Made by a program: the position numbers and the translations under genes
The notes under the pieces: model-generated
What the model saw: only the letters and a program-made list of their open reading frames with translations
Databases searched by the model: none
What the model was told of the DNA's origin: nothing
Shown: piece by piece, positions 29,268 to 56,515 of the stretch
Layout: each line of letters starts with the position of its first letter
Numbering within the stretch: position 1 is the stretch's first letter
NCBI GenBank assembly: GCA_050947035.1
Contig: JBMNVW010000005.1
Location: 1-63,475 of the forward strand
Origin: Patescibacteria group bacterium
Lineage (GTDB): Bacteria > Patescibacteriota > Microgenomatia > 0-14-0-10-38-17
DNA: 63,475 nt
Reading direction: 5' to 3'

Positions 29268-29282
29268 TTTATTTTATTGTTT

Positions 29283-29455: not shown

Positions 29456-29464
29456 CTTATTTTT

Positions 29465-29626: not shown

Positions 29627-29698
29627 TGGGGAGTAGTGTAATGGTAACACGCCAGTCTTTGGAACTGGTTACTCTAGGTTCGAATCCTAGCTCCCCAA
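29627..29698 (+). tRNA. tRNA-Gln(TTG)
   Basis: Acceptor TGGGGAG/CTCCCCA (U1-A72 as in bacterial Gln), anticodon arm CCAGT-CTTTGGA-ACTGG, T-arm CTAGG-TTCGAAT-CCTAG. Confidence 0.9.
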
Positions 29699-29827
29699 CA
29701 TTAAGCTAGGTGAGAACCTAGTAAAAATTCTGATTAACAGAATAACAAAAGACAACCGTGCTGTTATTACACCAACCAACAAGGTAAGAAAGCGGTTCGT
29801 GTCGTCTTCGAATCCTAGCTCCCCAAC
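29699..29827 (+). repeat. tRNA-linked element, copy B (ends in a 21-nt duplicate of the tRNA-Gln 3' end)
   Basis: Hairpin CTAGG-TGAGAA-CCTAG mimics the Gln T-stem. Conserved blocks AAAATTCTGAT, GACAACCGTGCTGTT and AGCGGTTCGTGTCGTC follow. It ends with TTCGAATCCTAGCTCCCCAAC (29807-29827), a duplicate of the tRNA-Gln sequence from T-loop to 3' end. Confidence 0.75.
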
Positions 29828-43718: not shown

Positions 43719-43770
43719 CCAAGTAATTAAAGCTAGTTTTCCTATAGTTTTGAATCTTTAAAAGGACCTT

Positions 43771-43967
43771 GTCAACCTTGGCTGTCTTAACTTTGGCCTG
43801 GGACAATATTTAGTTATCGAGGATAATAATTTAAAATTTTACGATTTAGATTATTAGTTCAAAAAAGAGAGGATTTCTCGCTTAAATACTTTACCGTATT
43901 TAAATAGTTGGGCATAAATTATTTTTACAAAATTTTTCACAATTTTAAAAAGGAGAGTCCTTAAAAA
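43771..43967 (+). repeat. Module copy A: last ~90 nt of a metallophosphoesterase gene plus ~110 nt of downstream sequence
   Basis: Aligns with 54544-54740. The gene fragment still reads in frame as VNLGCLNFGLGQYLVIEDNNLKFYDLDY*. The block TTAAATACTTTACCGTATTTAAATAGTTGGGCATAAATTA is identical in all three copies. Confidence 0.85.
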
Positions 43968-44153
43968 TATGGGCTAGTGGAAGATAAACGCTATTGTCTT
44001 GGCCCACAAAGACGAGATAAACACGTCACCCTTTTTAGGCTTTGGTAATGTATCCGACGTTTTTATTAAACTTATAATTTTATAATGACTTTGTTCCCCC
44101 CAAGAAAATTCAAGACACCCCTAATTTGCTAAAATAAACCCAATAACCAAACC

Positions 44154-44957: not shown

Positions 44958-44986
44958 ATCAACCCCAACCCGCATAGCGCTGCCCC

Positions 44987-45006
44987 TAAATACTGTAGTG
45001 TATTTA
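44987..45006. repeat. Fourth TAAATAC-N6-GTATTTA palindrome
   Basis: TAAATAC-TGTAGT-GTATTTA, 30 nt after the EEP stop. It has the same arms as the palindrome inside module copies A, B and C. Confidence 0.6.
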
Positions 45007-45287
45007 AATCATTGAAGTTCAAACTATTTTCCTTAGGTTCCCAAGAAACAAACATAATTCTATCCCAGGCGAAAATAAAAACAAAAAATGGATTAAGAGA
45101 AGAAAACTCTTAATGCTGGCGGTCAGCCCTTGAGGTGGTCTTTACAGTTGATCAGAGAATCCTTGAAAAAAATCCTTTGAAAATAACCCTTGAAAATGCC
45201 TCTCAGGTGGAAAAAAACCAAGAAGAAAAAAGTTTTCTTCATTAATTAGGATTATGGCGGATCTGTTGGATAAGGAGATTTACTTTC

Positions 45288-46072
45288 CTATCTACTATTG
45301 TCAAATCTTCCCTTCTCGACTACATGAGTAGGGCCATCTACATAAACCTTAGCAGCAATTTGCTCCAATTTACTTACACTCCAAGAGACTATCGGTAGAG
45401 ATTTTCCTCCGGTAGCCTCTAATATATAAACCCCTTGTTCATTGCGAGAAAGAGAAAATCAAAGTCGTTCATATTGACAACCACCATAGGTATAGGGAAA
45501 ACCATCCCCCTCCTTATAATCCCAAACCAAAGCGGTGTAGCACTTAATCATTTCCATACTATCTTCTCCTCTAGCAGATATATCTCGAAAACATTGCTGT
45601 AAAAAATCTAGTTTTTCTTGTTCTTGACGGCTACGGGAATATTTATCTTGTGGATTTACCGGCCTAGACATAAGCTCGAGATCAAGACCAGAAAAAGCGT
45701 AGACCTCTCCCGTTAGTGATGACCACGACCCAACTTGAACCTCTGAAATCACACCTAGCTTCGCTGGAGTAGGATCAATTCGCTTCTCCCGTTTTTTACG
45801 ACCAAAAAGGGTGGTAACAGTACTGCGTTCAGGAGTGCAATAATAAAGATCCATATCCTCTCTTAAATCCTCTAGAACACCAATTGCGCCAGATTCACTC
45901 AATTTTTGAACAAAAGGTAAGGCATAATTTCGAGCAATTTCTTCATGCCTTATATATACCGCATATATACCGCGTCTATACTTTCGGTTAATTTTCTCTC
46001 TTGTTCTATCTCCCAATTAAGAGCCTCTTGTTTTGCCCGCCTTCGTCTTTCAATCTCCTTTTTAATTCCCAT
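45288..46072 (-). pseudogene. Disrupted hypothetical gene: 11-bp tandem duplication (frameshift) plus in-frame TGA
   Basis: ATG at 46072 opens MGIKKEIERRRRAKQEALNWEIEQERKLTESIDAVY.., and ATATATACCGC is duplicated in tandem at 45952-45973. Removing one unit fuses this frame to track ORF 45459..46016. After the TGA at 45459-45461, 56 more codons stay open (FSLSRNEQGVYILEATGGKS ..) up to the TAG at 45288. Confidence 0.55.
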
Positions 46073-46261
46073 TTGAGCCTATAATATCACCTTCGCACTC
46101 TTGACGCAAGGCCCAATATAAACCCAGCTATCCAGCTATAGTAAGCCCTTTTCCTTTAAAAAATCAAAAGAGGGAATTGTTCTTAATAAATTTTATAAAA
46201 ATCCTCGAGACAAAAAGACAATCCCATCTCTCAAATGAGAACAGTCAAATTATTATGCCAT

Positions 46262-46306
46262 AAAAAAACCTCGCCCAGGCCAGCTAAATAGCTAGCCTGG
46301 ACGAGG
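46262..46306 (-). terminator. Rho-independent terminator after the S66 peptidase gene
   Basis: On the minus strand, CCTCGTCCAGGCTAGCT-ATT-TAGCTGGCCTGGGCGAGG is followed by TTTTTTT. Confidence 0.8.
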
Positions 46307-46409
46307 TGATGATATTTATATTTTACTGCATTAACACCGGTGTCGATAAAAAAACACAATCTTGATTATCATGAAGAACTAATAAAATTAAAAAAATTAT
46401 TAAAAAACT

Positions 46410-47396
46410 TTAGTGCTTAATTATTTTTATCTGACAGTTTTTCCCGCTGACAATCCTCGCCGTTCCACCAAGGGGTAAGGTAACCTTCGGCGTTGTGTGC
46501 CCAAAATCAACATTAGCAATAACTGGAATATTACCAATTACCCCCTTATTTCTCTTGATTATTTTTTCTAACAATTTTACACTGATATCACTCCTTATTT
46601 GGAATCTACCAAAAACCATCCCCACACAGCTTGCAAAGCCCTTATTTAAACACAAAGAAATTATATTTCTATTTAAATGATCTATTTCATACTCGTCATC
46701 GTCTTCAATAAATAAAACATATTTTTCTTCTCCTACCGGCCAGTATTCTGTCCCCCGAAGAAGCTGTAAGGTTGAGATATTACCACCTATTATTACCCCC
46801 TCAGCTTCTCCTTCTTGAATTGACAAGTATCCTTTATTTTTAAAAAAATGCCTGTCATTCTGGTTTTTCCCCCATTTTTCATCGCTCCATAAGCTAGATT
46901 CTCGCAAATCATAATTATTTTCCTGAAAGAGACATTTCTTAAAATATTCCATAGTATAACTAAAACCTCTTAACTCGCCAAAATCAAAGTAATGGGGACC
47001 ATAATATGTAACCAAGCCACTCTTAGTATAAATACCACTTAAAAGTGCGGTTATATCTGAATATCCACAAATAATTTTGGGATTACTTTTAATAACTTCA
47101 TAATCTAAATAGGGAAGTATCTCGATAGAGTTATAACCCCCGATAGCTGTAATAATCGCCTTAACGTTTTTGTCTCTGAAGGCTTCATGTAAATCTTTAA
47201 CTCTTTTTTCAATCGAAGACGAAGATAAATAGTCTATAGCCATCACGTTAGAAGCAAAAGTGAGCCTTAGACCTAATTCTTCAAATCTTCTATTGGCAAC
47301 CGCTTTTAATTCTTCAGTAAGCCAAGGCAAGGCCAAGCTTCTGGCTGGTGCGATAACTCTAACTTCATCGCCAAACTTAAGTTTAGGGGGGATCAT
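46410..47396 (-). CDS. S66 serine peptidase (LD-carboxypeptidase / MccF-like), copy 1
   Basis: 328 aa with VRVIAPA, the nucleophile context CGYSDITAL, the acidic FIEDDDE and His in DFGHTTP. Confidence 0.85.
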   Translation of the reverse strand: MIPPKLKFGDEVRVIAPARSLALPWLTEELKAVANRRFEELGLRLTFASNVMAIDYLSSSSIEKRVKDLHEAFRDKNVKAIITAIGGYNSIEILPYLDYEVIKSNPKIICGYSDITALLSGIYTKSGLVTYYGPHYFDFGELRGFSYTMEYFKKCLFQENNYDLRESSLWSDEKWGKNQNDRHFFKNKGYLSIQEGEAEGVIIGGNISTLQLLRGTEYWPVGEEKYVLFIEDDDEYEIDHLNRNIISLCLNKGFASCVGMVFGRFQIRSDISVKLLEKIIKRNKGVIGNIPVIANVDFGHTTPKVTLPLGGTARIVSGKNCQIKIIKH

Positions 47397-47435
47397 GTTT
47401 TCTCGTTATTTACTGCTTGATATAAATATACTTCA

Positions 47436-47903
47436 TTATACCTCGATGTTTTCTAGGCCCAAATATTCCATGCAAAATAAAAGCTCCTCTGCAGAATCGA
47501 TTTTATGAAAACCATTAAAAATAACCTCAAAACCGCTTTTCTCATCCCGAAAGGTTTTTCTTAAGCCATACCTAGAGCGCAAAGAGTTATCCAGAGATAA
47601 AAAATACCCCCAGGAAGAGCCCACATCATTAATCAATCTACGGATTGTGTTCCCCTTCACATGGCTAACAATAAGAACATAATAATCTTCTCCAAAATTG
47701 CTTTCTAAATAAGCCTTTAAAAACACCCCTAAAACTTCTTTCGAAAAATCCTTGCGGTATATAGCCTTAACAACTTGAGAAAAATTAGTTTTCTTATATT
47801 TCCCTAAAATTGAATATCCCCTTCTGCTTATATCCAAACAAATATTGTCTATCTCGCTCGCACATTCTGGTTTGACTATTAACAAAGAAAGATCTCTCTT
47901 CAT
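47436..47903 (-). CDS. Nucleoside-diphosphate-kinase-fold protein (divergent)
   Basis: LLIVKPE start as in NDK (IKPD), NTIRRL, and NGFHKIDSAEE aligning with N.VHGSDS.E (catalytic His retained). ATGA overlap with the upstream gene. Confidence 0.55.
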   Translation of the reverse strand: MKRDLSLLIVKPECASEIDNICLDISRRGYSILGKYKKTNFSQVVKAIYRKDFSKEVLGVFLKAYLESNFGEDYYVLIVSHVKGNTIRRLINDVGSSWGYFLSLDNSLRSRYGLRKTFRDEKSGFEVIFNGFHKIDSAEELLFCMEYLGLENIEV

Positions 47904-48622
47904 TGTATAATCTTTTCTGGCATAACTTCTTTTATAGAGTTCTTTTCCAAAAGCGTCATCATTAACCTATCGAAACTAATAAATACTCCTAAGCAAGGGG
48001 GAAGCCCTCTTTTAAACTCCTCTAAAAACCCAATATCCAGTCGGGCGTCAGGACGTTCTCTTTTTACCACCTCAAATTGTGATAACAACCTAGAAAGTAC
48101 CTGCTGGTAATCTTCCCCCTTCGCGCTGTGCGTCGAAAATGGCACTATATTTGCTGTCCCCGAATAGGGTGACATTATCCTACTATCTACCTCTGTTAGC
48201 CCATATTGCAGAAGGCTACTTCTGATTATTTCTTTTGCCCTTGCTCTACTTACTAACAATTCTTTAAGACTAAGATCTTCTCCTTCGTAACTCTCTGGCC
48301 TAGAAAACAAATGAAATCCTTCTACAAACAAACTCGTTTGACCACTGTTTGTAGCCCCAAGGTTTCCTACACACCGCACAAAGTCACCAGTTTTAATATC
48401 GAAAGGAGAGTTGTTATCCAAATTTTCAAAGACAATCTGTGTTTGAGTTAAGCCATTATAAACGTCACAAAACATTGTTCACTTATGTTTCCTTACCGCA
48501 ATTACTCTTCCTTCCACCTCTGAGCGGCCAACACCCTCTCCAACCCCTTGATCTTCTGAGCCACCTTGATACACTTCCCTCATTATATGAAGGATTTTAC
48601 CACCAGATCCAACTTTTTGCAT
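47900..48622 (-). pseudogene. LysRS-derived (class IIb aaRS) mini-protein lacking the catalytic core, interrupted by an in-frame TGA
   Basis: The OB fold is split by the TGA at 48479-48481 (..EVEGRVIAVRKHK*TMFCDVYNGLTQTQIVF..). The motif-1 region is LLQYGLTEVDSRIM, and VPFSTHS aligns with RPFITHH. It then jumps to motif 3 (GLPPCLGVFISFDRLMMTLL..SIKEV). About 230 aa of a normal catalytic domain are absent. Confidence 0.6.
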
Positions 48623-48664
48623 ATCTACTAAATGGTTATCAAAATAAACAATAAATATTTTTCA

Positions 48665-48975
48665 CGAAAAATATAACCAGAAAATTGAGACCAAGGCCAA
48701 AAAATATTTAAGAAGAAACCAAATCTTGGTTTGCGGCCATACTCACCTGGCCCAAAAAGACCCCAAGAAAGGTTTTATCAACCTTGGCTGTCTTAATTTT
48801 GGCCTAGGGCAATATTTAGTTGTCGAGGATAATAATTTAAAATTTTACGATTCGGATTATTAGTTTAGAAAAAAAGAGGGGATGCTTATTTAAATACTTT
48901 ACCGTATTTAAATAGTTGGGCATAAATTACTTTCACAAAATTTTTCACAATTTCAAAAAGGAGAATCCTTAAAAA
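48665..48975 (+). repeat. Module copy B: last ~190 nt of a metallophosphoesterase gene plus downstream sequence
   Basis: Aligns with 54428-54740. The fragment reads ..CGHTHLAQKDPKKGFINLGCLNFGLGQYLVVEDNNLKFYDSDY*. Most differences from copy C are synonymous or conservative. Confidence 0.85.
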
Positions 48976-49135
48976 TAAATACCTTATCTTTTACAACACT
49001 AAAAGAGTCCATCAAAGTCTAGACTATGAGACACCGATGGACTATATCATCAAAAAGGGAGGAATGTCGAATATGTATCGAGCCCGTACATAAGCTTTAA
49101 TTTATGACATATTTGTGATAGAATGTGTTTCACAT

Positions 49136-49387
49136 ATGGTAAATCCGGAAATTAAAATTAACCAAACACCTAATCACATAGATATTGTTATTAGGCAAGA
49201 AAGTTCTAGTAAAGCCGCTGTCGTTCATATTCCTTTTGGTGGAAAATCAGCCGAGACAAGTAGGATAGATCACTGGGCAAGCCCCGATGAACTATTTATG
49301 CGGCGAGAGTCCGCCATTGATATTAAAGCACCTATCGAAGAACGACCAAGAGATCATTGGGCCGGACCGGATGAATTGATGAGATAA
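49136..49387 (+). CDS. Small hypothetical protein with a duplicated C-terminal DHWA.PDEL motif
   Basis: 83 aa from the ATG at 49136 (the track starts at the GTG at 49115). Contains RIDHWASPDELFMRR and RDHWAGPDELMR-stop. No obvious SD. Confidence 0.4.
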   Translation: MVNPEIKINQTPNHIDIVIRQESSSKAAVVHIPFGGKSAETSRIDHWASPDELFMRRESAIDIKAPIEERPRDHWAGPDELMR

Positions 49388-49538
49388 TAGAATAATATAG
49401 TGAGATTTTAACTACTTTGCTCCGATTAGGCGCTGAGTAATTTGAGCCATTATGCCCCTAAGCCTAATCTCTTTTTGGTAAAATCAAAGGCTTAAATAAA
49501 GGAAAAAGTAATGCAAAATATGCAAAAAGGTATTTTGT

Positions 49539-50537
49539 ATGATTGATAAAATTTACCCCCCAAAATTATCGAAAGGCGATAAAATTGGTGTAATTGCTAC
49601 TTCAACACCAATCACGACTTTAAAGGAAGGACAAATTAAACAAGGCTATCACTATCTTGAAAGCAAAGGATTTACTGTTATTGAGCATCCTCAGTGTCGT
49701 AAAAAGAAAGATTATACAGCAGGAACAGTTAAAGAACGTGTTCGGGCTATTCACCAATTTGTTAAAGATAAAGAAATAAAATGCATTATGGCTTTTTGGG
49801 GTGGCTTAAACACAAATCAGATATTGGATTATTTGGATTATGATTTGATAAAAGCCAACCCGAAAATTTTTATTGGATATTCTGATACTTGCGCTTTGCT
49901 TCAGGCTCTTACTACAAAAACTGGTTTGGTTACCTATATGGGACCGGCAGTCATTACTTTTGCTAAACCAGACCCCTTCAATTATTCTTGGGAATATTTT
50001 AGCAAAATGTGTATCAAAGACTCAAAAGAAGTTGCAATCAAGGATTCTAAGGTTTTTGCCGACGATCTGTATTTTCTAAGAAAAGACAACGACCACCGGA
50101 TTATTCAAAAAAACCCGGGAATAAAAATATTTCGGGAAGGAAAAGCGCAGGGTTCAATAGTGGCATGTAATCTCTCTACTCTTTTAGCCCTTTGGGGGAC
50201 GGAGTATTTTCCTTTTCTAAAAGAAAAAATTCTTTTCATAGAAGAAGCGGAAGATTTAGATTACCGCTGGATACACCGTTTTATGACCCAATTAAAACAA
50301 ATAGGAGCTTTTAAATTAATAAAAGGTTTGGTTATCGGAAAATTTATGACTGCTTCAAATATTAGCGAAAGTCAACTTTTAGAAATTCTAAATGAAGTAA
50401 TTGGTAAAATCGAAATACCGGTAATCTATGATGCGAATTTTGGCCATACTGACCCCATCTTCACCGTTCCTAACGGTGGAAAATGTAAAATAAATACATT
50501 TTTCAATAAGATTTCATTTATCCAAGACAGAATTTGA
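49539..50537 (+). CDS. S66 serine peptidase (LD-carboxypeptidase / MccF-like), copy 2
   Basis: 332 aa with IGVIATS, IGYSDTCAL, FIEEAED and NFGHTDP. Overlaps the next gene. Confidence 0.85.
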   Translation: MIDKIYPPKLSKGDKIGVIATSTPITTLKEGQIKQGYHYLESKGFTVIEHPQCRKKKDYTAGTVKERVRAIHQFVKDKEIKCIMAFWGGLNTNQILDYLDYDLIKANPKIFIGYSDTCALLQALTTKTGLVTYMGPAVITFAKPDPFNYSWEYFSKMCIKDSKEVAIKDSKVFADDLYFLRKDNDHRIIQKNPGIKIFREGKAQGSIVACNLSTLLALWGTEYFPFLKEKILFIEEAEDLDYRWIHRFMTQLKQIGAFKLIKGLVIGKFMTASNISESQLLEILNEVIGKIEIPVIYDANFGHTDPIFTVPNGGKCKINTFFNKISFIQDRI

Positions 50538-50539
50538 AT

Positions 50540-51778
50540 ATGAGAATATCAAAGGAATCGGAAAAACATTATAATCTGTCCCATTCAGAAGAGATATTGG
50601 GGATAAGAAAAAAACTTGAGGAGACCTTTTTATCATTTTATAAAAAACATGGTTATAGTTGGGTTTCTCCCATTCCGCTTATTCCAGGGGAAATTGATCC
50701 ATCTGTAACGTTTACTGGGGCAACGGTGAATGGTTGGAAGCGATACTTAACAGGAGAAAATAAATTACCAAATAGGGGAATATATACAGCCCAACCATGT
50801 TTAAGAACCCAAAATGCGACTTCAATTTACGATTTTGAAACCACTCCTAAGTTTGGAAGTTATTTCTCAATGGCGGGGGTACTATCACCAGCCGGAAGAT
50901 TACCTGATATTTATCACGAAGCGCTTTCCCTTTTAACTGAAGAACTTGGAGTTGCCAAAAAAGATATTGTGGTTCATATTGCCTCTGACCATGAGGAAAT
51001 TAGCACTTGCGCGAGAGAGGGACCGTACGAGATAAAAATAGAGACCGATCAGATTGGTTATTATAAATGGAATTATGGAATAGAGGGGGTTTTAGGCGAA
51101 GGGTTAACAATAGCCTTATTAAACAAAAGGAGCCAAGAATTTGAAGAAATAGGGAATATTGTGTTAATTAAAAATAGTGGAAAAGCGATAGCAACTGAAT
51201 GGGGATTTGGACTGGAAACAACTACATCTAGACTTTTATCTTTACCACACCCTGTTTTTGCCTCTCCTGTAATTCGATTTATTGAAAAAGATGTTCTTTC
51301 AACTCCTTTGGGCGTTCGTTTGGGAGATTCTCTTGTTGCAATTTCTGCCCTTTTGGCCAATGGAACCGATCTTAATTCCTCAAATCAGAAAGTGGCGAGA
51401 GTTTTGGAAAAATATAAAAGAGGTATTGCCTACCTTGCTGCACTAGAAGAAATACCAGGAACTACGGTAGTAGAAATAATAACCAAGATTGTCAGCTCCC
51501 TCTCCCCCGAAGTTAGGGTATCGCCAGAAACAATAGAACAACTAGTTGGGTATTTTTCAAATGCCGGAAAGAGACAAAATGATTTCCTTAATTCTGTAAG
51601 GGGAATCCTCACTAACCCTGTCTATAGAACTAACCCGGAGCGTGCGGCAAAAAGTCTTCAAAGAACAGCTAAAAATTATGGATTTCATAATTTGAAAGTT
51701 ATTCGGGGTATAATTAGCTTCAACGCCAGGTTATTTACAAAAGAAGATCTTAATTTTTTAAAATGCCTACAAAACTAA
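50540..51778 (+). CDS. Stand-alone paralogue of the alanyl-tRNA synthetase catalytic domain
   Basis: Aligns by eye with the AlaRS N-terminus: IRKKLEETFLSFYKKHGY.. (IRQAFLDFF..KGH), DPSVTFTGA (DPTLLFTNAG), AQPCLRT (SQRCVRA), YFSMAGVLS (FFEMLGNFS), EIGNIVLI (EIWNIVFM), EWGFGLET (DTGMGLER). At 412 aa it has no editing or C-Ala domains. Confidence 0.65.
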   Translation: MRISKESEKHYNLSHSEEILGIRKKLEETFLSFYKKHGYSWVSPIPLIPGEIDPSVTFTGATVNGWKRYLTGENKLPNRGIYTAQPCLRTQNATSIYDFETTPKFGSYFSMAGVLSPAGRLPDIYHEALSLLTEELGVAKKDIVVHIASDHEEISTCAREGPYEIKIETDQIGYYKWNYGIEGVLGEGLTIALLNKRSQEFEEIGNIVLIKNSGKAIATEWGFGLETTTSRLLSLPHPVFASPVIRFIEKDVLSTPLGVRLGDSLVAISALLANGTDLNSSNQKVARVLEKYKRGIAYLAALEEIPGTTVVEIITKIVSSLSPEVRVSPETIEQLVGYFSNAGKRQNDFLNSVRGILTNPVYRTNPERAAKSLQRTAKNYGFHNLKVIRGIISFNARLFTKEDLNFLKCLQN

Positions 51779-52581
51779 CTCCCAAATTCATATACTCCCT
51801 TCCCTACACCGAGTTTGTGGGATTAGTTAACCAATGGAATGTTCCACCCGGGGCTTTTTCTACAGTTAATAAATGGGCTAAATTTGGTAATGTTAATCAG
51901 GATTCAAATGTTTTAGAATTGGGGTGTTCGACTGGATTTTCTTTAAGAGAGTTAACAGCTTTAACTTCTTGTAGGGGTTTAGGAATAGACATTTCTGAAG
52001 CTTCTGTGAAGACAGCCACGCTCAATAAAAATCTTTGTACTCCTGGAGCCAGAATAAAATATAAAAAGATAGACGCTTATAAGTTTCAACCAACAGAAAA
52101 ATTTTCGCATGTCGTTTTTGGAGCAGCTTTAAGATTTTTTCCGAATCCACCCAAGATACTAAAGTTAGCTACTGGCTGGTTGACAGATCCTGGGTATATA
52201 CTTTCATGCGAATTTTACACTATTCAACCAATCCCCAAAAATTTAGTAGAAAAAGCAAAAAAAATTTTTGACATAGAAATTACTCAAGTTGGCTACAAAG
52301 AAGTGATGAAAATCTACCATGATCTGGAATTAATATATGAGGAAAGAAATTCTATTTTTGAGGAGACGGCGGAAGAACTTAGCTTTTATTGTCAATCAAC
52401 TATTTCTAGAGCTTGTAAGCTTCTGAATATTACAGATAAAAAAATATATGATGCCATGTATAAGAGACTCTATGAAATAAAAAATATGTCCAACAGGCTT
52501 CGACCCTATCAAAACTATAATGTTTTAGTCCATCGATTTAGAAAAAAATTCTACCAAAAACGTTTTGTGGAGTTATTCTAA
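51763..52581 (+). CDS. Class I SAM-dependent methyltransferase
   Basis: Motif I VLELGCSTGFSL, a post-I acidic residue (GLGIDIS) and an FGAAL motif IV region. 16-nt overlap with the AlaRS-like gene. Confidence 0.7.
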   Translation: MPTKLTPKFIYSLPYTEFVGLVNQWNVPPGAFSTVNKWAKFGNVNQDSNVLELGCSTGFSLRELTALTSCRGLGIDISEASVKTATLNKNLCTPGARIKYKKIDAYKFQPTEKFSHVVFGAALRFFPNPPKILKLATGWLTDPGYILSCEFYTIQPIPKNLVEKAKKIFDIEITQVGYKEVMKIYHDLELIYEERNSIFEETAEELSFYCQSTISRACKLLNITDKKIYDAMYKRLYEIKNMSNRLRPYQNYNVLVHRFRKKFYQKRFVELF

Positions 52582-52591
52582 AAAAATAAAA

Positions 52592-53119
52592 ATGATATTA
52601 ACTGGCGAAGAAATAAAAAAACAGGTAAAACTTGGGAATATTCATATTAAACCTTTTTGCGAAGAATTAATAAATCCAAATAGTTACAATTACAGAATAG
52701 CTCCTGAATTATTAGAAATTGAGGAGGAAATAATTGATTCAAAAAATCCATACAAGACGAAAACGGTTTGGATGGACCAACAAAGCGGATTTATGCTCAA
52801 ACCTCACCGGCTATACCTGGCAAAGACCTATGAGGAAATTGGCAGTAGAGAATTTGTCACCATTTTAATAGGACGTTCGTCTGTGGGTAGACTAGGATTG
52901 TTTCTCCAAATTACCGCAGATTTGGGTCACGTAGGATGTCAACATTGTTGGACTTTGGAGCTAAAAGTGGTTCAGCCTCTTATTATTTATCCATTTATGA
53001 AAATTGGACAAGTCGGTTTCTGGATAAATTACGGTTCTAAAAATAAAAAATATTCTGGGGAGTACGGAAAATATTCAATTCCCTATCCAAGCAAACTCTA
53101 TAAGGAGCTTAATAAATGA
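52592..53119 (+). CDS. dcd: dCTP deaminase-fold protein (dUTPase superfamily), catalytic Glu present
   Basis: MILTGEEIKK.., NPNSYNYRI, and GRSSVGRLGLFLQITADLG..CWTLELKV, which aligns with GRSSLARLGL..IVLEF of Dcd. ATG at 52592 preferred. Confidence 0.75.
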   Translation: MILTGEEIKKQVKLGNIHIKPFCEELINPNSYNYRIAPELLEIEEEIIDSKNPYKTKTVWMDQQSGFMLKPHRLYLAKTYEEIGSREFVTILIGRSSVGRLGLFLQITADLGHVGCQHCWTLELKVVQPLIIYPFMKIGQVGFWINYGSKNKKYSGEYGKYSIPYPSKLYKELNK

Positions 53120-53631
53120 TACTCACGGGAAAAAAAATTAAGGAGGAAGTAAAAAAGGGTAAGATAGTTATCGACCCCTTTGATGAGAGTAAAATCAACC
53201 CAAACTCTTACGACTTCAGGTTGTTTAATAAGATAAAAATCTATAAAGAGCGAATATTGGATGTCAAAAAAGTGAATGAAGCTGAGGAGGTGGAAATACC
53301 CCCTTCGGGATTTGTATTAAAGCAAGACGTTTTATACCTCAGCTGTACGGTGGAAATTATGGGCAGTAATTTTTATGTGCCAATCATTCGAGGAAGATCT
53401 TCAACGGCAAGGCTTGGGATATTTATCCATATAACTGCCGACCTAATTGATATTGGCTCAATAAACAGGTGGACATTAATGATGCACGCTGTTCAACCAG
53501 TTAAAATTTATCCCTATATGCTAATAGGGCAGGTAACGTTTTGGGTTCCTAAAGGAAAAATAACTTTATATAAGGGTAAATACCAAGGAAGTAAAAAACC
53601 AATGTCATCATTAGCTTATAAGGATTTTTAA
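53116..53631 (+). CDS. dCTP deaminase-fold paralogue with the catalytic Glu replaced (TLMM)
   Basis: MILTGKKIKE.., NPNSYDFRL and GRSSTARLGIFIHITADLIDIGS..RWTLMMHA. ATGA overlap with the preceding paralogue. Confidence 0.7.
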   Translation: MILTGKKIKEEVKKGKIVIDPFDESKINPNSYDFRLFNKIKIYKERILDVKKVNEAEEVEIPPSGFVLKQDVLYLSCTVEIMGSNFYVPIIRGRSSTARLGIFIHITADLIDIGSINRWTLMMHAVQPVKIYPYMLIGQVTFWVPKGKITLYKGKYQGSKKPMSSLAYKDF

Positions 53632-53985: not shown

Positions 53986-54630
53986 ATGAAAACCCTAATT
54001 TTTTCCGATACTCATTTAACCAATAAGCCCGACCCCAAACGAATGGCTTTTTTGAAAAAGATTATCAACGAGGCTGACCGGGTAATTATCAACGGCGATT
54101 TTTGGGATGGAGTGTTTATTAGTTTTGATCAGTTTTTATCTTCCCCTTGGCAAGAATTATTTCCTTTATTAAAAAAGAAAAATACCATTTATGTTTATGG
54201 CAACCACGATAAAAAAGAGCGTTGCGACGAAAGAGTAAGCCTGTTTTCCAACCACCAGGCCGAAAGCTATTCTTTATCTCTAGGAAACAAAACCTTGCTA
54301 ATTACTCACGGCCACAACTTAAATTTATCCTTTACCAAAACAGTCAAAATCTTAAAAATCTGCCGGCCACTATTCCGCCTTGATCATTTTTTGGCCAATA
54401 TTTTGGGCCGAAAATATCTTTATTGGTCAAGAAAAAAATATAATCAGGAAGTTGAAAAAGAAGCCAAAAAACTTTCCCAAAGAAACCAAATTTTGGTTTG
54501 CGGCCATACTCACCTGGCCCAAAAAGACCCCAAGAAGGGTTTTATCAACCTTGGTTGTCTTAATTTCGGCTTAGGGCAATATTTGATTGTTGAAGATAAT
54601 AGCCTAAAATTTTATGATTTAGACTATTAG
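53986..54630 (+). CDS. Calcineurin-like metallophosphoesterase (LpxH/YfcE-like)
   Basis: IFSDTHL, NGDFWD, YGNHD, ITHGH and CGHTH motifs. This is the only full-length copy of the gene whose 3' end is repeated at 43.8 and 48.7 kb. Confidence 0.8.
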   Translation: MKTLIFSDTHLTNKPDPKRMAFLKKIINEADRVIINGDFWDGVFISFDQFLSSPWQELFPLLKKKNTIYVYGNHDKKERCDERVSLFSNHQAESYSLSLGNKTLLITHGHNLNLSFTKTVKILKICRPLFRLDHFLANILGRKYLYWSRKKYNQEVEKEAKKLSQRNQILVCGHTHLAQKDPKKGFINLGCLNFGLGQYLIVEDNSLKFYDLDY

Positions 54631-54740
54631 TTTAGAAAAAAAGAGGATTTCTCGCTTAAATACTTTACCGTATTTAAATAGTTGGGCATAAATTATTTTC
54701 ACAAAATTTTTCACAGCCTCAAAGGGGGAATCTTTAAAAA
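54428..54740 (+). repeat. Module copy C (reference copy: 3' part of the intact metallophosphoesterase gene plus ~110 nt downstream)
   Basis: Homology to copies A and B ends at the same point in all three, just after TTAAAAA (43967, 48975, 54740). Confidence 0.85.
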
Positions 54741-54856
54741 CACTTCAATTTTTCACTTCATTCCTCAAGCCCTAAAACCTAGCTACCTAACCATCTAGCG
54801 AAAGGCTTTTTGTTCCGTTACAATAAAACTAATCCTAAAATTTGAGTTCCTGCCTG

Positions 54857-55537
54857 ATGAGTAAAAATTATTCTCTCCAAAGCCTGCCACCGGAAGAACG
54901 GCCCCGGGAAAGACTAAAACAATTAGGGGCAGAAAATCTTTCCCTTCAAGAACTCCTGGCCTTGGTTATCGGCCGCGGCACTAAAAACAAAAATGTTTTA
55001 CAATTAGCCCAAGAATTGCTTTCTTTCTTTGGTAATTTACAAAATCTTCGCCAAGCCTCGCTGGAAGAACTAAAACAAATTAGGGGCATCGGCCCGGCCA
55101 CGGCTTGTAAAATAAAAGCGGCCCTGGAAATAGGGAAGAGGAGTAGCAAAAACTTTCAGCAATACCAGCAAAAAATTGCCAAACCGGTTGATGTTTTCAA
55201 ACTCTTAAAACCCCAAATCGGCGATAAGAAAAAAGAACATTTCGTTTTGCTTTCTCTAGATACTAAAAACAATATTATCAACCTGGATACAATTTCTATC
55301 GGCTCCTTAAATATTAGCCTGGCCCACCCCAGGGAAATTTTCCAAACCGCCATCAAAAACTCCGCCGCCACCATTATTCTAGCCCATAATCACCCTTCCG
55401 GCGATCCCACCCCCAGCGACAACGACCTCAAAATTACCAAACGGCTATCAGAAATCAGTAAATTGGTAGGAATTAGGTTAATCGACCATATCATTATCGG
55501 TCAAAGTGGGTACTACAGTTTTAGCAACCAAGACTAA
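54857..55537 (+). CDS. radC: RadC-like JAB-domain protein
   Basis: PPEERPRERL, an HhH region (LRQASLEELKQIRGIGPATA) and the JAMM motif HNHPSGDPTPSDND. ATG at 54857 preferred. Confidence 0.9.
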   Translation: MSKNYSLQSLPPEERPRERLKQLGAENLSLQELLALVIGRGTKNKNVLQLAQELLSFFGNLQNLRQASLEELKQIRGIGPATACKIKAALEIGKRSSKNFQQYQQKIAKPVDVFKLLKPQIGDKKKEHFVLLSLDTKNNIINLDTISIGSLNISLAHPREIFQTAIKNSAATIILAHNHPSGDPTPSDNDLKITKRLSEISKLVGIRLIDHIIIGQSGYYSFSNQD

Positions 55538-55585: not shown

Positions 55586-56515
55586 ATGCTGTTCAAAAAG
55601 GGGAGTAACGATAATCTAACTCCGGTTAAAAGGAAGAATATAAAGCTGGAAAAATCCCTCCAAAGCTTAACAGAAAAAAATTTGGAGGCGATTTTTGGTT
55701 TAGAATTTATTTCCACCGAGTTTCAAGTTGACAATCTTCGAATCGACACCCTCGCCTTTGATAACGAAACTCAGTCTTTTGTCATTATCGAATACAAAAG
55801 AAACCGAAGTTTTAGCGTTGTCGATCAAGGTTTTGCTTACCTTTCCCAAATGTTAAATAAAAAAGCCGAATTTATTTTAGAATATAACGAAAAAAGGGAA
55901 CAGAACCTCAAAAGAAACGATATCGATTGGTCGCAATCGCGCATAATTTTTATCGCCGGCTCCTTTACAACCCACCAGCAAAAAGCCATTAACTTTCAAG
56001 ATTTACCGATTGAGTTATGGGAAGTAGAAGAATATAAAAATAGCCTGATTAAATATGAACAATTAAAAACTCCCGGCGCCACCGCTTCAATCAAGGACCT
56101 TGGCACAAGTCAAACTATCTCAAGGATTAGTCAAGAAGTAAAGAAATACACTATAGAGGACCATTTTCACGAAGGATGGGATAATTCAAGAGAGTTGTTT
56201 GAGGAAATTAGAGAAAGGATATTAAGTCTCGACGATCAAATCGAGGAAAACCCCGTTAAGCATTATATTGGTTATAAAATCGCTGGTAGTGTTTTAACCG
56301 CAATAAGAATACAAAAATCTAAACTGATAGTTGACCTAAATAGAGTTCAGCCTAAAGATCTGGAAGATCCGGAAAAGGAAGTTTATTACCAAAAAAACAG
56401 TATGAAATATTACAATAAGCATATGAGTCAATTCAATATTAAGAAATCCGAAGACATCGATTACGCCATATTTCTAATCAAACAACTGCACAAAAAATTC
56501 GCGGATGAGTTTTAA
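55586..56515 (+). CDS. PD-(D/E)XK (NucS/DUF91-like) nuclease-domain protein with a DUF5655-like C-terminus
   Basis: LRIDTLAFDNETQSFVIIEYKRNRSFSVVDQGFAYL matches the D..ExK core of NucS-type nucleases. The C-terminal half is of a type I recall as common next to R-M loci. Confidence 0.55.
   Translation: MLFKKGSNDNLTPVKRKNIKLEKSLQSLTEKNLEAIFGLEFISTEFQVDNLRIDTLAFDNETQSFVIIEYKRNRSFSVVDQGFAYLSQMLNKKAEFILEYNEKREQNLKRNDIDWSQSRIIFIAGSFTTHQQKAINFQDLPIELWEVEEYKNSLIKYEQLKTPGATASIKDLGTSQTISRISQEVKKYTIEDHFHEGWDNSRELFEEIRERILSLDDQIEENPVKHYIGYKIAGSVLTAIRIQKSKLIVDLNRVQPKDLEDPEKEVYYQKNSMKYYNKHMSQFNIKKSEDIDYAIFLIKQLHKKFADEF

What the first reader, a model, noticed from the sequence alone, without database searches (positions are those of the whole stretch)
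49136..53631. Six-gene operon: repeat-motif small protein, MccF-like S66 peptidase, stand-alone AlaRS catalytic-domain paralogue, SAM methyltransferase, two dCTP-deaminase-fold proteins
What the sequence shows:
- Six same-strand genes have overlapping or nearly abutting boundaries (50534/50537, 51763/51778, 52581/52592, 53116/53119), so this is one transcription unit.
- It sits in a cargo cassette, not among housekeeping genes.
- The 412-aa protein retains the blocks that build the AlaRS amino-acid/ATP pocket (CLR for CVR, YFSMAG for FFEMLG, EIGNIV for EIWNIV, GFGLE for GMGLE). It has no editing or C-terminal domains.

What follows from known families:
- S66 peptidases include MccF. MccF detoxifies aminoacyl- and peptidyl-nucleotide Trojan-horse antibiotics by cutting the amino-acid-to-nucleotide amide bond.
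- aaRS paralogues in gene clusters act either as biosynthetic amino-acid activators or as resistance copies.

Inference: this may be a module that makes, modifies (methyltransferase, pyrimidine-deaminase folds) and self-protects against an aminoacyl-/peptidyl-nucleotide-like compound, or another nucleotide-centred conflict system. It is not a canonical microcin C cluster. I see no ThiF/MccB-type adenylyltransferase, no exporter and no Asn-terminated heptapeptide gene. I know of no described system with this gene combination.
Basis: partly seen in the sequence, partly recalled or inferred. Interest (0 to 1): 0.85.

Follow-up and report, generated by a model that had tools for sequence, protein, structure and literature searches.

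The report
Aminoacyl-nucleotide antibiotic-like gene module with self-immunity
Five tightly packed genes form a module, conserved across very distant microbes, that most likely makes a small amino-acid–pyrimidine-nucleotide toxin of the microcin C/agrocin 84/ascamycin type and protects its owner from it; this enzyme combination has not been described.

Summary
The gene block is real, but the conserved unit has five genes, not six. They are an MccF-like S66 hydrolase, a truncated AlaRS-like protein (AlaL), an MccD/AgnB1-like SAM enzyme, and two complementary dCTP-deaminase-fold proteins. The small repeat-motif ORF is an orphan, 151 nt upstream, and absent from every other copy.

- The "methyltransferase" is a full-length homologue of microcin C MccD and of the methyltransferase encoded beside leuS on the agrocin 84 plasmid pAgK84.
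- Both S66 copies sit with MccF, not LdcA.
- AlaL has the AlaRS catalytic and tRNA-recognition fold. It has lost the motif-3 arginine and carries the Asp-to-Glu change reported for AcmF, which uses Ala-tRNA.
- The methyltransferase plus DCD core recurs in 58 of 68 species-level loci, from Patescibacteria and DPANN archaea to Pseudomonas, Burkholderia and Paenibacillus.
- Partners in those loci include S66 (41), AlaL (33), a PLP decarboxylase (22) and a full LeuRS, AlaRS or SerRS gene (22). An extra aaRS is the classic self-resistance signature.

In this genome the module is one of several cassettes bounded by repeats and a palindromic site. No paper found describes the cluster. The product and chemistry are inferred, not shown.

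The parts
49539..50537 (+). S66a: MccF-like serine hydrolase, the putative self-immunity or processing enzyme. It is the first gene of the conserved module.
   Evidence: Pfam finds both the S66 N and C domains. PDB hits: B. anthracis MccF-like BA_5613 at 5.5e-62 and E. coli MccF at 1e-50, against LdcA at 1e-10 to 1e-13. The GYSD, IEE and GHT triad motifs align. An orthologue lies next to the module in most loci.
50540..51778 (+). AlaL: a truncated AlaRS-like protein with the catalytic and tRNA-recognition domains, and no editing or C-Ala domain. It is the putative amino-acid-to-nucleotide coupling enzyme, of AcmF type.
   Evidence: Pfam tRNA-synt_2c covers residues 28-160. The AF2 model has pLDDT 83.5. 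Foldseek's top hits are AlaRS catalytic fragments 1riq and 3hxu over 400-450 columns. The family has 177 representatives at E<=1e-30.
51763..52581 (+). MccD/AgnB1-like class I SAM-dependent transferase. It may transfer a methyl or a 3-amino-3-carboxypropyl group.
   Evidence: The PDB hit to MccD 5fcd is E 5.9e-21, residues 4-257 against 8-264. It is 27% identical over 99% coverage to MccD on E. coli mcc plasmids. It is 26% identical to the pAgK84 methyltransferase next to leuS, E 5e-23.
52592..53119 (+). DCD1: a dCTP-deaminase-fold protein that keeps the catalytic Glu (TLEL) but has His/Gln/Asn in place of the Asp of the IDPG motif.
   Evidence: Pfam PF22769, PDB alignments and an alignment of about 19 orthologues.
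53116..53631 (+). DCD2: a dCTP-deaminase-fold protein that keeps the Asp (IDIG) and the C-terminal GKYQGS lid, but has an invariant Met in place of the catalytic Glu. Its start overlaps DCD1 by 4 nt.
   Evidence: Pfam PF22769 and TIGR02274 at 100 bits, the PDB alignment to M. tuberculosis Dcd and the orthologue alignment.
49136..49387 (+). Orphan small ORF of 83 aa with two DHWA[SG]PDEL motifs. It is not part of the conserved module, and whether it is a gene is doubtful.
   Evidence: It has no Pfam hit, matches only itself, lies 151 nt from S66a, and is absent from other loci.
48667..48977 (.). Repeat R2, the left boundary of the module cassette. It is a copy of the 3' end of the metallophosphoesterase gene plus downstream sequence, and includes the palindrome TAAATAC-N6-GTATTTA at 48891.
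54434..54740 (.). Repeat R3, the right boundary. It is the 3' end of the intact metallophosphoesterase gene (53986-54630) plus downstream sequence, with the palindrome at 54657.
43770..43975 (.). Repeat R1, the third copy, with the palindrome at 43883. The R1-R2 segment is missing in the related strain contig L019.
46410..48475 (-). Neighbouring cassette on the opposite strand. It holds a second MccF-like S66 (46410-47396), an unknown 155-aa protein (47436-47903), and the remnant of a class IIb (Lys/Asp/Asn-type) aaRS gene (47900-48475).
   Evidence: S66b matches BA_5613 and Lmo1638 at about 3e-94. In L020 the aaRS gene is 478 nt longer and frameshifted.

Best explanation
The five genes form a compact biosynthesis-plus-immunity module for a small amino-acid-pyrimidine-nucleotide conjugate. 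The likely product is an aminoacyl-adenylate mimic that poisons an aminoacyl-tRNA synthetase. This is the same strategy as processed microcin C, agrocin 84/TM84, ascamycin, albomycin's warhead and phosmidosine.

Proposed division of labour (all inferred):
- DCD1 and DCD2 are co-translated, probably as a heteromer. They bind a (deoxy)cytidine or (deoxy)uridine triphosphate and convert it, by deamination and/or alpha-phosphate chemistry, into the nucleotide scaffold.
- AlaL has an AlaRS catalytic and tRNA-binding fold without the motif-3 arginine. It attaches a small amino acid to an amine on that scaffold, most likely from aminoacyl-tRNA as AcmF does.
- The MccD/AgnB1-like SAM enzyme alkylates the conjugate with a methyl or 3-amino-3-carboxypropyl group. 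In microcin C this goes on the phosphoramidate phosphate.
- The MccF-like S66 hydrolase cleaves the amino-acid-nucleotide amide, protecting the producer or regulating the level of active compound.

What is shown: gene structure, fold and family assignments, active-site substitutions, cross-phylum synteny, and recurrent linkage to full aaRS genes. What is inferred: every chemical step, the product, and its target.
For: - Tight packing of the five genes.
- The same five genes occur in the same order in divergent Patescibacteria contigs with different neighbours, such as SecA, PPDK, HtrA/CtpA, SerRS and L31.
- The methyltransferase is MccD-like. It is also homologous to the pAgK84 methyltransferase that sits between an AsnA-like class II aaRS-like gene and the leuS gene. 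PMC8323819 identifies agnB2 as the LeuRS immunity gene.
- Both S66 copies are MccF-like rather than LdcA-like.
- AlaL matches the AlaRS catalytic fragment by fold. Arg69, Trp170 and Asn212 equivalents are kept, Asp235 is Glu, and the motif-3 Arg is Thr. AcmF, a truncated AlaRS-like enzyme with D232E, transfers Ala from Ala-tRNA onto the NH2 of a nucleoside sulfamate (PMC12945691).
- In 68 GTDB species loci holding the methyltransferase: DCD-like genes within 7 kb in 58, S66 in 41, AlaL in 33, a PLP decarboxylase of the fold-type-III Orn/DAP/Arg family in 22, and a full-length aaRS in 22 (LeuRS 10, AlaRS 7, SerRS 5).
- LeuRS identity is confirmed at 858 and 977 bits against a cutoff of 548. In Wohlfahrtiimonas chitiniclastica the cluster with LeuRS lies on a plasmid-like contig carrying Rep, ParA and a resolvase.
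- A richer version (L039) adds a radical SAM enzyme, a thymidylate-kinase-like protein, a carbamoyltransferase, a second methyltransferase and a genuine AlaRS. That mirrors albomycin and ascamycin logic and points to a pyrimidine deoxynucleotide substrate.
- The complementary, invariant active-site losses in DCD1 and DCD2, with overlapping genes, argue for a specialised pair rather than housekeeping Dcd.
Against: - No product, activity or phenotype is known for any member.
- The window module has no exporter and no uptake (Trojan-horse) moiety, and the window shows no spare aaRS apart from a decayed Lys/Asp/Asn-type one in the next cassette.
- In several Patescibacteria the module lies among housekeeping genes and is stably inherited. 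That would also fit a physiological role.
- The role of the DCD pair has no precedent in any known aaRS-inhibitor pathway.
- The AlaL-AcmF comparison rests on published residue descriptions, not on an alignment with the AcmF sequence.
- Asn212 is kept in AlaL, whereas AcmF has Gln.
- One AlaL relative (L039) keeps Asp and the motif-3 Arg, so ATP-dependent activation cannot be excluded for the family.
- Adjacency of LeuRS, AlaRS or SerRS could be the housekeeping copy in some MAGs.
Confidence: 0.6

Rival explanations
1. Resistance or detoxification island only. The genes defend the cell against imported aminoacyl-nucleotide antibiotics (MccF-like hydrolysis plus nucleotide clean-up) and synthesise nothing.
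For: There are two MccF-like S66 genes within 4 kb and a decayed extra class IIb aaRS beside the second one. A GNAT of RimL/MccE-CTD type sits upstream in L008, L012 and L013. No exporter is present.
Against: MccD-type enzymes and AcmF/AgnA-type aaRS-like enzymes are known only as biosynthetic enzymes (PMC8323819, PMC12945691). The strictly conserved core is MT+DCD1+DCD2, not S66. Some relatives lack S66 and carry ATP-grasp ligases, a carbamoyltransferase and a radical SAM enzyme, which are typical tailoring enzymes.
Confidence: 0.1
2. A nucleotide-centred conflict or defence system. The module makes a modified pyrimidine nucleotide, such as a chain terminator or antimetabolite, or depletes dCTP, in order to block phage or host replication rather than to inhibit an aaRS.
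For: The DCD-fold pair is the most conserved part together with the methyltransferase. The window copy lies in a variable region near a DNA methyltransferase-like gene with an IDPPYN motif at 57395-59146. The methyltransferase domain weakly resembles PADLOC mad2. L039 carries a thymidylate-kinase-like gene.
Against: No PADLOC model matches any other gene. This reading gives no role to an AlaRS-like or an MccF-like enzyme. It also does not explain the recurrent linkage to LeuRS, AlaRS or SerRS genes.
Confidence: 0.12
3. Macromolecule modification. AlaL aminoacylates a tRNA-like RNA or a protein (as EpmA does for EF-P), the MccD-like enzyme adds an acp or methyl group to RNA or protein, and S66 trims it. 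This would be a housekeeping function of small-genome symbionts.
For: AlaL keeps the tRNA-recognition domain. In Saccharibacteria the module sits in a conserved block with SerRS, HPF, SecA and L31. A PheS-related 'SrmL'-type ligase replaces S66 at the 5' end there.
Against: It does not explain the DCD-fold pair or the specific MccD and MccF similarity. It also does not explain the patchy cross-phylum distribution on plasmids and islands, or the presence/absence polymorphism of the neighbouring cassette between strains.
Confidence: 0.08
4. Coincidental clustering of ordinary genes: LdcA for murein recycling, Dcd and Dut for dTTP synthesis, a generic methyltransferase, and a degenerate AlaRS fragment.
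For: NCBIfam's dCTP_deam model scores DCD2 above its cutoff. S66 enzymes are usually annotated as LD-carboxypeptidases.
Against: The gene order is conserved across bacterial phyla and archaea. Neither DCD has a complete canonical active site. S66 is MccF-like, and the methyltransferase is specifically MccD-like.
Confidence: 0.03

Closest known systems
Microcin C (mcc) system of E. coli plasmids: MccA, B, C, D, E, F
   Same: It has a homologue of MccD, the SAM-dependent 3-amino-3-carboxypropyl transferase acting on the phosphoramidate. It has a homologue of MccF, the S66 hydrolase that cleaves the aminoacyl-nucleotide amide. Many relatives add a PLP decarboxylase, the enzyme type of the MccE N-terminal domain, or a RimL-type GNAT. 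The overall logic of toxic aminoacyl-nucleotide plus hydrolase immunity is shared.
   Different: It has no MccA peptide, no ThiF/E1-like MccB and no MccC pump. The amino-acid-nucleotide bond would be made by an AlaRS-like enzyme. The nucleotide part is implied to be a pyrimidine (deoxy)nucleotide handled by two DCD-fold proteins, which no mcc cluster contains.
Ascamycin pathway: AcmF (truncated AlaRS-like, Ala-tRNA-dependent transferase), AcmD (AlaRS), AcmE (hydrolase)
   Same: AlaL has the same architecture: aminoacylation plus tRNA-recognition domains only. It also has the same Asp-to-Glu change at the alpha-amino-binding position and retains the motif-2 Arg (PMC12945691). A hydrolase that removes the aminoacyl group is encoded alongside. 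Some relatives carry a genuine AlaRS next to AlaL, like AcmD next to AcmF.
   Different: The acceptor cannot be a chlorinated adenosine sulfamate, because no sulfamate or halogenation genes are present. The hydrolase is S66 rather than alpha/beta-hydrolase. Asn212 is kept where AcmF has Gln. The direct sequence relationship to AcmF was not tested.
Agrocin 84 (agn) cluster of pAgK84
   Same: On pAgK84 an AsnA-like class II aaRS-like gene, an MccD-family methyltransferase (26% identical to the window methyltransferase) and leuS are adjacent. PMC8323819 names agnB2 as the LeuRS immunity gene. Relatives of the window module show the same trio of class II aaRS-like enzyme, MccD-like methyltransferase and LeuRS.
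   Different: The aaRS-like enzyme is AlaRS-derived, not AsnA-derived. The window copy has S66 instead of a spare LeuRS. There are no homologues of the other agn genes, no opine-like uptake moiety, and the DCD pair is absent from pAgK84.
Bacterial dCTP deaminase / bifunctional dCTP deaminase-dUTPase (Dcd, DCD-DUT)
   Same: Both DCD proteins belong to PF22769 and keep the GRSS...RLG nucleotide-binding motif. DCD1 keeps the catalytic Glu. DCD2 keeps the Asp and the C-terminal lid.
   Different: Each paralogue has lost one of the two hallmark residues, and the loss is invariant across phyla. They always occur as an adjacent, often overlapping pair next to the MccD-like gene. A specialised, possibly heteromeric, enzyme is implied.
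Phosmidosine and albomycin warhead SB-217452 (aminoacyl-nucleotide or aminoacyl-nucleoside aaRS inhibitors)
   Same: Phosmidosine is a natural phosphoramidate nucleotide antibiotic (PMC6429109). From my own knowledge, it is a prolyl N-acyl phosphoramidate O-methyl ester, the kind of product an aaRS-like ligase plus an MccD-like methyltransferase could give. From my own knowledge, the albomycin cluster combines a pyrimidine nucleoside, a carbamoyltransferase, a methyltransferase, radical SAM enzymes, a SerRS-like enzyme and a SerRS immunity gene. The enriched relative L039 parallels this.
   Different: No gene-level homology to those clusters was tested. To my knowledge the phosmidosine gene cluster is unknown.

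Membership tests
Microcin C-type (mcc) cluster | Short ribosomal precursor peptide ending in Asn (MccA) | tested here: not met
   Only chance Asn-terminated mini-ORFs without an RBS were found. The small ORF ends in ...DELMR and is an orphan. L001 has only 90 nt upstream of S66.
Microcin C-type (mcc) cluster | ThiF/E1-like nucleotidyltransferase MccB | tested here: not met
   Every ORF of the block has another assignment, and there is no ThiF hit. None was seen in related loci.
Microcin C-type (mcc) cluster | MccD-type SAM-dependent transferase | tested here: met
   The 5fcd hit is E 5.9e-21 over the full length, with the next PDB hit at 0.005. It is 27% identical over 99% coverage to MccD genes on E. 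coli mcc plasmids. Whether it transfers acp or methyl is not testable here.
Microcin C-type (mcc) cluster | MccF-type S66 immunity hydrolase | tested here: met
   S66a matches E. coli MccF at 1e-50 and BA_5613 at 5.5e-62. LdcA matches at no better than 1e-10 to 1e-13. The Ser/Glu/His motifs align. Activity is not testable.
Microcin C-type (mcc) cluster | MccE (PLP decarboxylase + GNAT) and the MccC exporter | tested here: not met
   Both are absent from the window block. A PLP decarboxylase is present in 22 of 68 related loci, and a GNAT in 3.
Canonical alanyl-tRNA synthetase | AlaRS catalytic plus tRNA-recognition fold | tested here: met
   The AF2 model has pLDDT 83.5. Foldseek gives 1riq, 3htz and 3hxu at E about 1e-13, TM 0.65, over 400-450 columns.
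Canonical alanyl-tRNA synthetase | Motif-3 arginine (GMGLER) and Asp235 for ATP and alpha-amino binding | tested here: not met
   GFGLET with an invariant Thr229, and Glu222 in place of Asp. The reference AlaRS sequences were L039's 591-aa AlaRS and the E. coli sequence written from memory.
Canonical alanyl-tRNA synthetase | Editing domain and C-Ala domain | tested here: not met
   The protein is 412 aa and has no tRNA_SAD hit.
AcmF-type aminoacyl-tRNA-dependent transferase | Truncated AlaRS architecture with Asp-to-Glu at the alpha-amino site and the motif-2 Arg retained | tested here: met
   compared with the residues reported in PMC12945691 (Arg93, Glu216, Gln219, Glu232).
AcmF-type aminoacyl-tRNA-dependent transferase | Asn-to-Gln change and loss of most ATP-binding residues | tested here: inconclusive
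   Asn208 is kept and the motif-3 Arg is lost.
AcmF-type aminoacyl-tRNA-dependent transferase | Uses aminoacyl-tRNA as the acyl donor onto a nucleoside-linked NH2 | not testable with these tools
   This needs enzymology.
dCTP deaminase (Dcd / DCD-DUT) | Catalytic Glu together with the Asp of the (I/V)DPG hairpin in one subunit | tested here: not met
   DCD1 has Glu present and Asp replaced by His/Gln/Asn. DCD2 has Asp present and Glu replaced by Met. Both changes are invariant across about 19 orthologues each.
Agrocin 84-type cluster | Class II aaRS-like enzyme next to an MccD-family methyltransferase | tested here: met
   pAgK84 has asnA-like, methyltransferase and leuS genes in a row. The methyltransferase homology is E 5e-23. 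Here the aaRS-like enzyme is AlaRS-derived.
Agrocin 84-type cluster | Resistant LeuRS immunity gene in the cluster | tested here: not met
   There is none in the window. It is present in 10 of 68 related loci and in the W. chitiniclastica plasmid-like contig.
Known anti-phage defence systems (PADLOC) | Match to a defence-system protein model | tested here: not met
   The only hit is a generic methyltransferase-domain match to mad2. There are none for S66, AlaL, DCD1 or DCD2.

The most novel reading that the evidence does not exclude
The DCD1/DCD2 pair is a heteromeric enzyme that turns dCTP into a deoxyuridine (or deoxycytidine) 5'-phosphoramidate. It would do so by using ammonia, possibly the molecule released by its own deaminase site, instead of water as the nucleophile at the alpha-phosphate. 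AlaL then acylates that P-NH2 with an amino acid taken from aminoacyl-tRNA. The MccD-like enzyme esterifies the phosphoramidate with methyl or acp. The result would be a ribosome-independent, peptide-free analogue of processed microcin C or phosmidosine, with MccF-like S66 or a spare aaRS as immunity. It would be the first antibiotic pathway assigned to Patescibacteria and DPANN symbionts, and a new enzymatic route to the N-acyl-phosphoramidate bond.
Probability: 0.12. Interest if true: 0.92.

Novelty: new variant of a known kind. Interest (0 to 1): 0.8.

Why it matters
If the reading is right, this is an undescribed and very widespread family of gene clusters for aminoacyl-tRNA-synthetase-directed nucleotide antibiotics. 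The clusters are built from an unprecedented enzyme set: an AlaRS-derived coupling enzyme, an MccD-type SAM enzyme, and a split dCTP-deaminase-fold pair.

- It would give ultra-small symbionts (Patescibacteria, DPANN archaea), which are thought to have almost no secondary metabolism, a chemical weapon or a means of controlling their hosts.
- It would offer new chemistry for making non-hydrolysable aminoacyl-adenylate mimics.
- It would explain why MccF-like 'LD-carboxypeptidases' are common outside microcin producers.
- The same core occurs in cultured Pseudomonas batumici, Burkholderia lata, Paenibacillus baekrokdamisoli, Photorhabdus viridis, Wohlfahrtiimonas chitiniclastica and Streptomyces strains, so the hypothesis can be tested directly.

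Tried and rejected
- PADLOC scan of all ten local proteins: only a generic methyltransferase-domain hit.
- Small ORF as precursor or carrier protein: no Pfam hit, a chance-level DltC match (E 0.009), and no homologues. Rejected as part of the module.
- Search for an MccA-like Asn-terminated ORF: only chance ORFs.
- The first word-indexed homologue search made AlaL look extremely rare, with 8 clusters. The full HMM scan corrected this to 177 representatives at E<=1e-30.
- Taxonomic placement of the window through UvrB: one uninformative 53% hit labelled Clostridiales. A Patescibacterial origin therefore rests only on the nearest relatives of the module.
- Megablast of the W. chitiniclastica cluster against plasmids: only an IS3 end matched.
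- Possible link to the Photorhabdus 4'-thiothymidine cluster: that paper's cluster (thmA-C) is unrelated.
- Possible recurrent role for the endonuclease/exonuclease/phosphatase gene (window 44154-44957 against the one in L039): no specific similarity.
- The unknown 155-aa protein (47436-47903): no Pfam, NCBIfam or PDB match.
- Six literature searches for the gene combination found no description.

Full report
**1. What is in the sequence**

Five are tightly packed.

| Gene | Coordinates | Junction with previous gene |
|---|---|---|
| S66a | 49539-50537 | first gene |
| AlaRS-like (AlaL) | TTG at 50534; homologues start at the ATG at 50540 (412 aa) | within 3 nt of the S66a stop |
| Methyltransferase (MT) | 51763-52581 | 16-nt overlap |
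| DCD1 | true start 52592 by homology | 11 nt after the MT stop |
| DCD2 | 53116-53631 | ATGA overlap |

- Pfam and NCBIfam assign Peptidase_S66 N and C domains, tRNA-synt_2c (only the first ~135 profile positions), class I methyltransferase domains, and PF22769 DCD twice.
- The sixth ORF (49136-49387, two DHWA[SG]PDEL motifs) is different. It lies 151 nt upstream of S66a and has no visible Shine-Dalgarno sequence. It has no family hit. In a 5.8-billion-protein collection it matches only itself.

**2. The five genes form a conserved module; the small ORF is not part of it**

- Contigs encoding AlaL relatives at 31-73% identity carry S66-AlaL-MT-DCD1-DCD2 in the same order, with unrelated neighbours. 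These include secA, PPDK, HtrA/CtpA, ribosomal protein L31 and an ABC-F ATPase.
- In one Saccharibacteria lineage, S66 is convergent downstream. A PheS-related 'SrmL'-type ligase (NF051887, E 2.7e-26) takes the first position.
- None of these loci has a homologue of the small ORF. In L001 only 90 nt separate secA from S66.

**3. What the individual proteins are**

*S66.*
- S66a matches the B. anthracis MccF-like protein BA_5613 at 5.5e-62 and E. coli MccF at about 1e-50. It matches LdcA enzymes only at 1e-10 to 1e-13. The nucleophile Ser (GYSD), Glu (IEE) and His (GHT) motifs align.
- The second copy on the other strand, S66b (46410-47396), is even closer to BA_5613 and Lmo1638, at about 3e-94.

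*Methyltransferase.*
- Its only significant solved relative is MccD (5fcd), at E 5.9e-21, residues 4-257 against 8-264. The next hit is at 0.005.
- 5FCD is the microcin C enzyme that transfers 3-amino-3-carboxypropyl from SAM to the phosphoramidate (PMC10491745; PMC8323819).
- By tblastn the protein matches mccD on E. coli mcc plasmids at 27% identity over 99% coverage.
- It also matches a methyltransferase on pAgK84. There the gene lies between an 'asparagine synthetase A' gene (a class II aaRS-like enzyme) and leuS, and the pairwise E-value is 5e-23. PMC8323819 describes agnB2 as the LeuRS immunity gene of that plasmid and AgnA as carrying an aaRS-type adenylation domain.

*AlaL.*
- An AlphaFold model (pLDDT 83.5, pTM 0.82) superposes on AlaRS catalytic fragments (1riq, 3htz, 3hxu; E about 1e-13; 400-450 aligned columns). 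The protein therefore has the aminoacylation domain plus the tRNA-recognition helical domain, and no editing or C-Ala domain.
- Family alignments show that the equivalents of E. coli Arg69 (QPCLR), Trp170 (YYxWxYG), Asn212 (EIGN) and Gly237 are conserved. The E. coli reference sequence was written from memory. A genuine 591-aa AlaRS from locus L039 served as an in-session reference.
- Asp235 is Glu (EWGFG), and the motif-3 arginine of GMGLER is an invariant Thr (GFGLET).
- The review PMC12945691 describes AcmF of ascamycin biosynthesis. AcmF is a truncated AlaRS-like protein with just these two domains. It lacks ATP-binding residues and carries D232E. It transfers Ala from Ala-tRNA(Ala) onto the NH2 of a nucleoside 5'-O-sulfamate, and Arg93 (motif 2) and Glu232 are key residues.
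- AlaL shares the architecture, the retained motif-2 Arg and the Asp-to-Glu change. It keeps Asn where AcmF has Gln.
- AlaL is therefore more likely a transferase of this type than a tRNA-charging enzyme or a resistance copy. This is inference.

*DCD pair.*
- Alignments to solved Dcd enzymes and across about 19 orthologues of each paralogue show a reciprocal, invariant pattern.
- DCD1 keeps the catalytic Glu (TLE) but has His/Gln/Asn in place of the Asp of the (I/V)DPG hairpin.
- DCD2 keeps that Asp (IDIG) and the C-terminal GKYQGS lid, but has Met in place of the Glu.
- Both keep GRSS...RLG. The two genes usually overlap by 4 nt.
- Neither is a complete canonical dCTP deaminase. A specialised, probably heteromeric, pyrimidine-nucleotide enzyme is the simplest reading (inference).

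**4. The wider family gives the functional context**

- A full HMM scan shows that AlaL-like truncated proteins are not rare. There are 177 representatives at E<=1e-30, 320-440 aa long.
- The methyltransferase family has 97 close relatives at 41-76% identity.
- In GTDB species representatives it was found in 78 loci. These come from many Patescibacteria classes and DPANN archaea (Woesearchaeota, Nanoarchaeota, Nanobdellota). They also come from Alpha- and Gammaproteobacteria, Firmicutes, Bacteroidota, Actinomycetota, Parachlamydia and Bdellovibrionaceae.
- Cultured carriers include Pseudomonas batumici UCM B-321, Burkholderia lata LMG 23254, Paenibacillus baekrokdamisoli KCTC 33723, Photorhabdus viridis, Facilibium subflavum and several Streptomyces.

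Gene content within 7 kb of the methyltransferase, in the 68 loci where it was called:

| Partner | Loci (of 68) |
|---|---|
| DCD-like gene | 58 |
| S66 | 41 |
| AlaL | 33 |
| PLP decarboxylase | 22 |
| PheS-related ligase | 12 |
| Full-length aaRS | 22 (LeuRS 10, AlaRS 7, SerRS 5) |

- Several of the 10 loci without a DCD-like gene are short contigs.
- The decarboxylase belongs to the fold-type-III Orn/DAP/Arg family. The N-terminal domain of MccE is also a PLP-dependent decarboxylase (PMC10491745).
- A given aaRS gene would fall within such a window by chance in roughly 1% of small genomes. That figure is my estimate.
- LeuRS identity was confirmed by TIGR00396 at 858 and 977 bits against a cutoff of 548.

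Examples:
- W. chitiniclastica NEFH01000009 is a plasmid-like contig with Rep, two ParA genes, a resolvase and TacA. It carries unk357-MT-DCD1-DCD2-unk249-ATP-grasp-AlaL-LeuRS. P. batumici has the same layout.
- The ATP-grasp enzymes weakly resemble the L-amino-acid ligases BacD and DdaF.
- A Nanoarchaeota contig has PLP decarboxylase-S66-MT-DCD1-DCD2.
- An Acutalibacteraceae locus next to a T4SS coupling protein has a PPTase, an AMP-binding-like protein and a radical SAM enzyme. It continues with a thymidylate-kinase-like protein, three DCD genes, MT and AlaL. It ends with a carbamoyltransferase, a second methyltransferase and a genuine AlaRS (452 bits plus tRNA_SAD).

Taken together, these features are those of biosynthetic clusters for aaRS-directed aminoacyl-nucleotide or aminoacyl-nucleoside antibiotics. 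The MT-DCD core is conserved, the ligases and tailoring enzymes vary, and immunity is either an MccF-like hydrolase or a spare aaRS. Known examples are microcin C, agrocin 84, albomycin and ascamycin (PMC8323819, PMC12945691).

**5. Most likely mechanism (inference)**

- The DCD pair shapes a pyrimidine (deoxy)nucleotide.
- AlaL couples a small amino acid to an amine on it, probably from aminoacyl-tRNA.
- The MccD-like enzyme alkylates the conjugate.
- S66a hydrolyses the amino-acid-nucleotide amide to protect the producer.

My confidence in this general scheme is about 0.6. The amine acceptor is unknown. One economical possibility is a nucleoside 5'-phosphoramidate made by the DCD pair with ammonia as the nucleophile. 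That would give each enzyme the reaction of its closest characterised relative. I rate it at about 0.12 and list it as the novel case. An alternative is acylation of the alpha-amino group of an acp group installed by the methyltransferase.

**6. Rival explanations**

- A resistance-only island (0.10).
- A nucleotide-based defence or antimetabolite system (0.12).
- A macromolecule-modifying housekeeping system (0.08).
- Coincidental clustering (0.03).

The main weaknesses of the preferred reading are these. There is no exporter or uptake moiety in the minimal module. The module is stably inherited among housekeeping genes in some Saccharibacteria. There is no precedent for DCD-fold enzymes in such pathways. 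There are no experimental data at all.

**7. Local genomic context**

- The module lies in a variable region.
- Three copies of a 200-300-nt repeat occur at about 43770-43975, 48667-48977 and 54434-54740, at 83-89% identity. The repeat is the 3' end of the metallophosphoesterase gene 53986-54630 plus downstream sequence.
- The palindrome TAAATAC-N6-GTATTTA occurs four times, at 43883, 44987, 48891 and 54657, where 0.01 copies are expected by chance. Each copy sits at a boundary between gene blocks.
- Among all fetched loci, the palindrome occurs only in the two near-identical strains.
- Contig L019 (about 98.7% identical over the module) lacks window 43970-48774 exactly between two repeats.
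- L020 (NPIE01004804.1, about 99.4%) has 478 more nucleotides inside the class IIb aaRS-like gene, which is also frameshifted there.
- The module is therefore one cassette of a small array. The neighbouring cassette (S66b, a 155-aa unknown protein, and a decaying Lys/Asp/Asn-type aaRS) looks like a degraded immunity set.
- The rest of the window is chromosomal, with uvrA, uvrB, PPDK, iPGM and a tRNA cluster.
- Its phylum was not established directly.

**8. Novelty**

Six full-text searches found no description of a cluster combining DCD-fold proteins, an MccD-like enzyme and an AlaRS-like enzyme. I class it as a new variant of a known kind (aaRS-inhibitor aminoacyl-nucleotide clusters with self-immunity), with a real chance of new chemistry.

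Noticed in passing
window 43883-43902, 44987-45006, 48891-48910, 54657-54676: The 20-nt palindrome TAAATAC-N6-GTATTTA has 7-8-bp inverted arms and a 6-nt spacer, like the core site of a tyrosine recombinase or a Xer/dif site. It occurs four times where 0.01 copies are expected, always at a boundary between gene blocks. Among all fetched loci it is found only in the two near-identical strains. It may mark dif-module-like cassettes. No integrase was seen nearby.
   Followed up: partly
window 43770-43975, 48667-48977, 54434-54740: Three diverged copies (83-89% identity) of the 3' end of the metallophosphoesterase gene plus its downstream region delimit two cassettes. Related contig L019 lacks the segment between the first two copies (window 43970-48774).
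   Followed up: yes
window 46410-48475 (- strand); L020 4882-6089: A second MccF-like S66 gene, an unknown 155-aa protein with no detectable relatives, and a decaying class IIb (Lys/Asp/Asn-type) aaRS gene. The aaRS gene is frameshifted in L020 and carries a further 478-nt deletion in the window. This could be the remnant of an immunity cassette against an aminoacyl-nucleotide toxin.
   Followed up: partly
L015 7155-7943 (also L014, L016, L017, L040, and many loci): A 262-aa protein matching NCBIfam 'PheS-related mystery ligase SrmL' (E 2.7e-26) recurs next to the MT-DCD core in 12 of 68 loci. It often accompanies a conserved ~482-aa unknown protein and a PLP decarboxylase in place of AlaL. 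This is a second, AlaL-free architecture of the same cluster family.
   Followed up: partly
L033 6927-8000 and 9859-10608; L028 6815-7942: Three conserved proteins of unknown function (about 357, 249 and 375 aa) recur in the LeuRS-linked versions of the cluster: W. chitiniclastica, P. batumici, Pseudomonadota MAGs and some Patescibacteria. They have no Pfam or NCBIfam match.
   Followed up: partly
window 13395-17594 (+): A 1399-aa ORF with no Pfam match at E<=1e-5. It lies between uvrB and a surface-protein-like gene carrying SdrD_B, SpaA and DUF11 domains.
   Followed up: no
window 57395-59146 (+) and 55586-56515 (+): A 583-aa ORF with an IDPPYN motif typical of N6/N4 DNA methyltransferases, and a 309-aa unknown ORF, lie just downstream of the cassette array, after a gene (54842-55537) that I judged RadC-like from its sequence alone. 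This suggests a restriction-modification or defence neighbourhood. I read it from the translation only and did not run it against family libraries.
   Followed up: no
window 28772-29699: A cluster of six tRNA genes: Leu-CAG, Leu-GAG, Val-TAC, Phe-GAA, Gly-GCC and Gln-TTG. There is no tRNA-Ala in the window.
   Followed up: no
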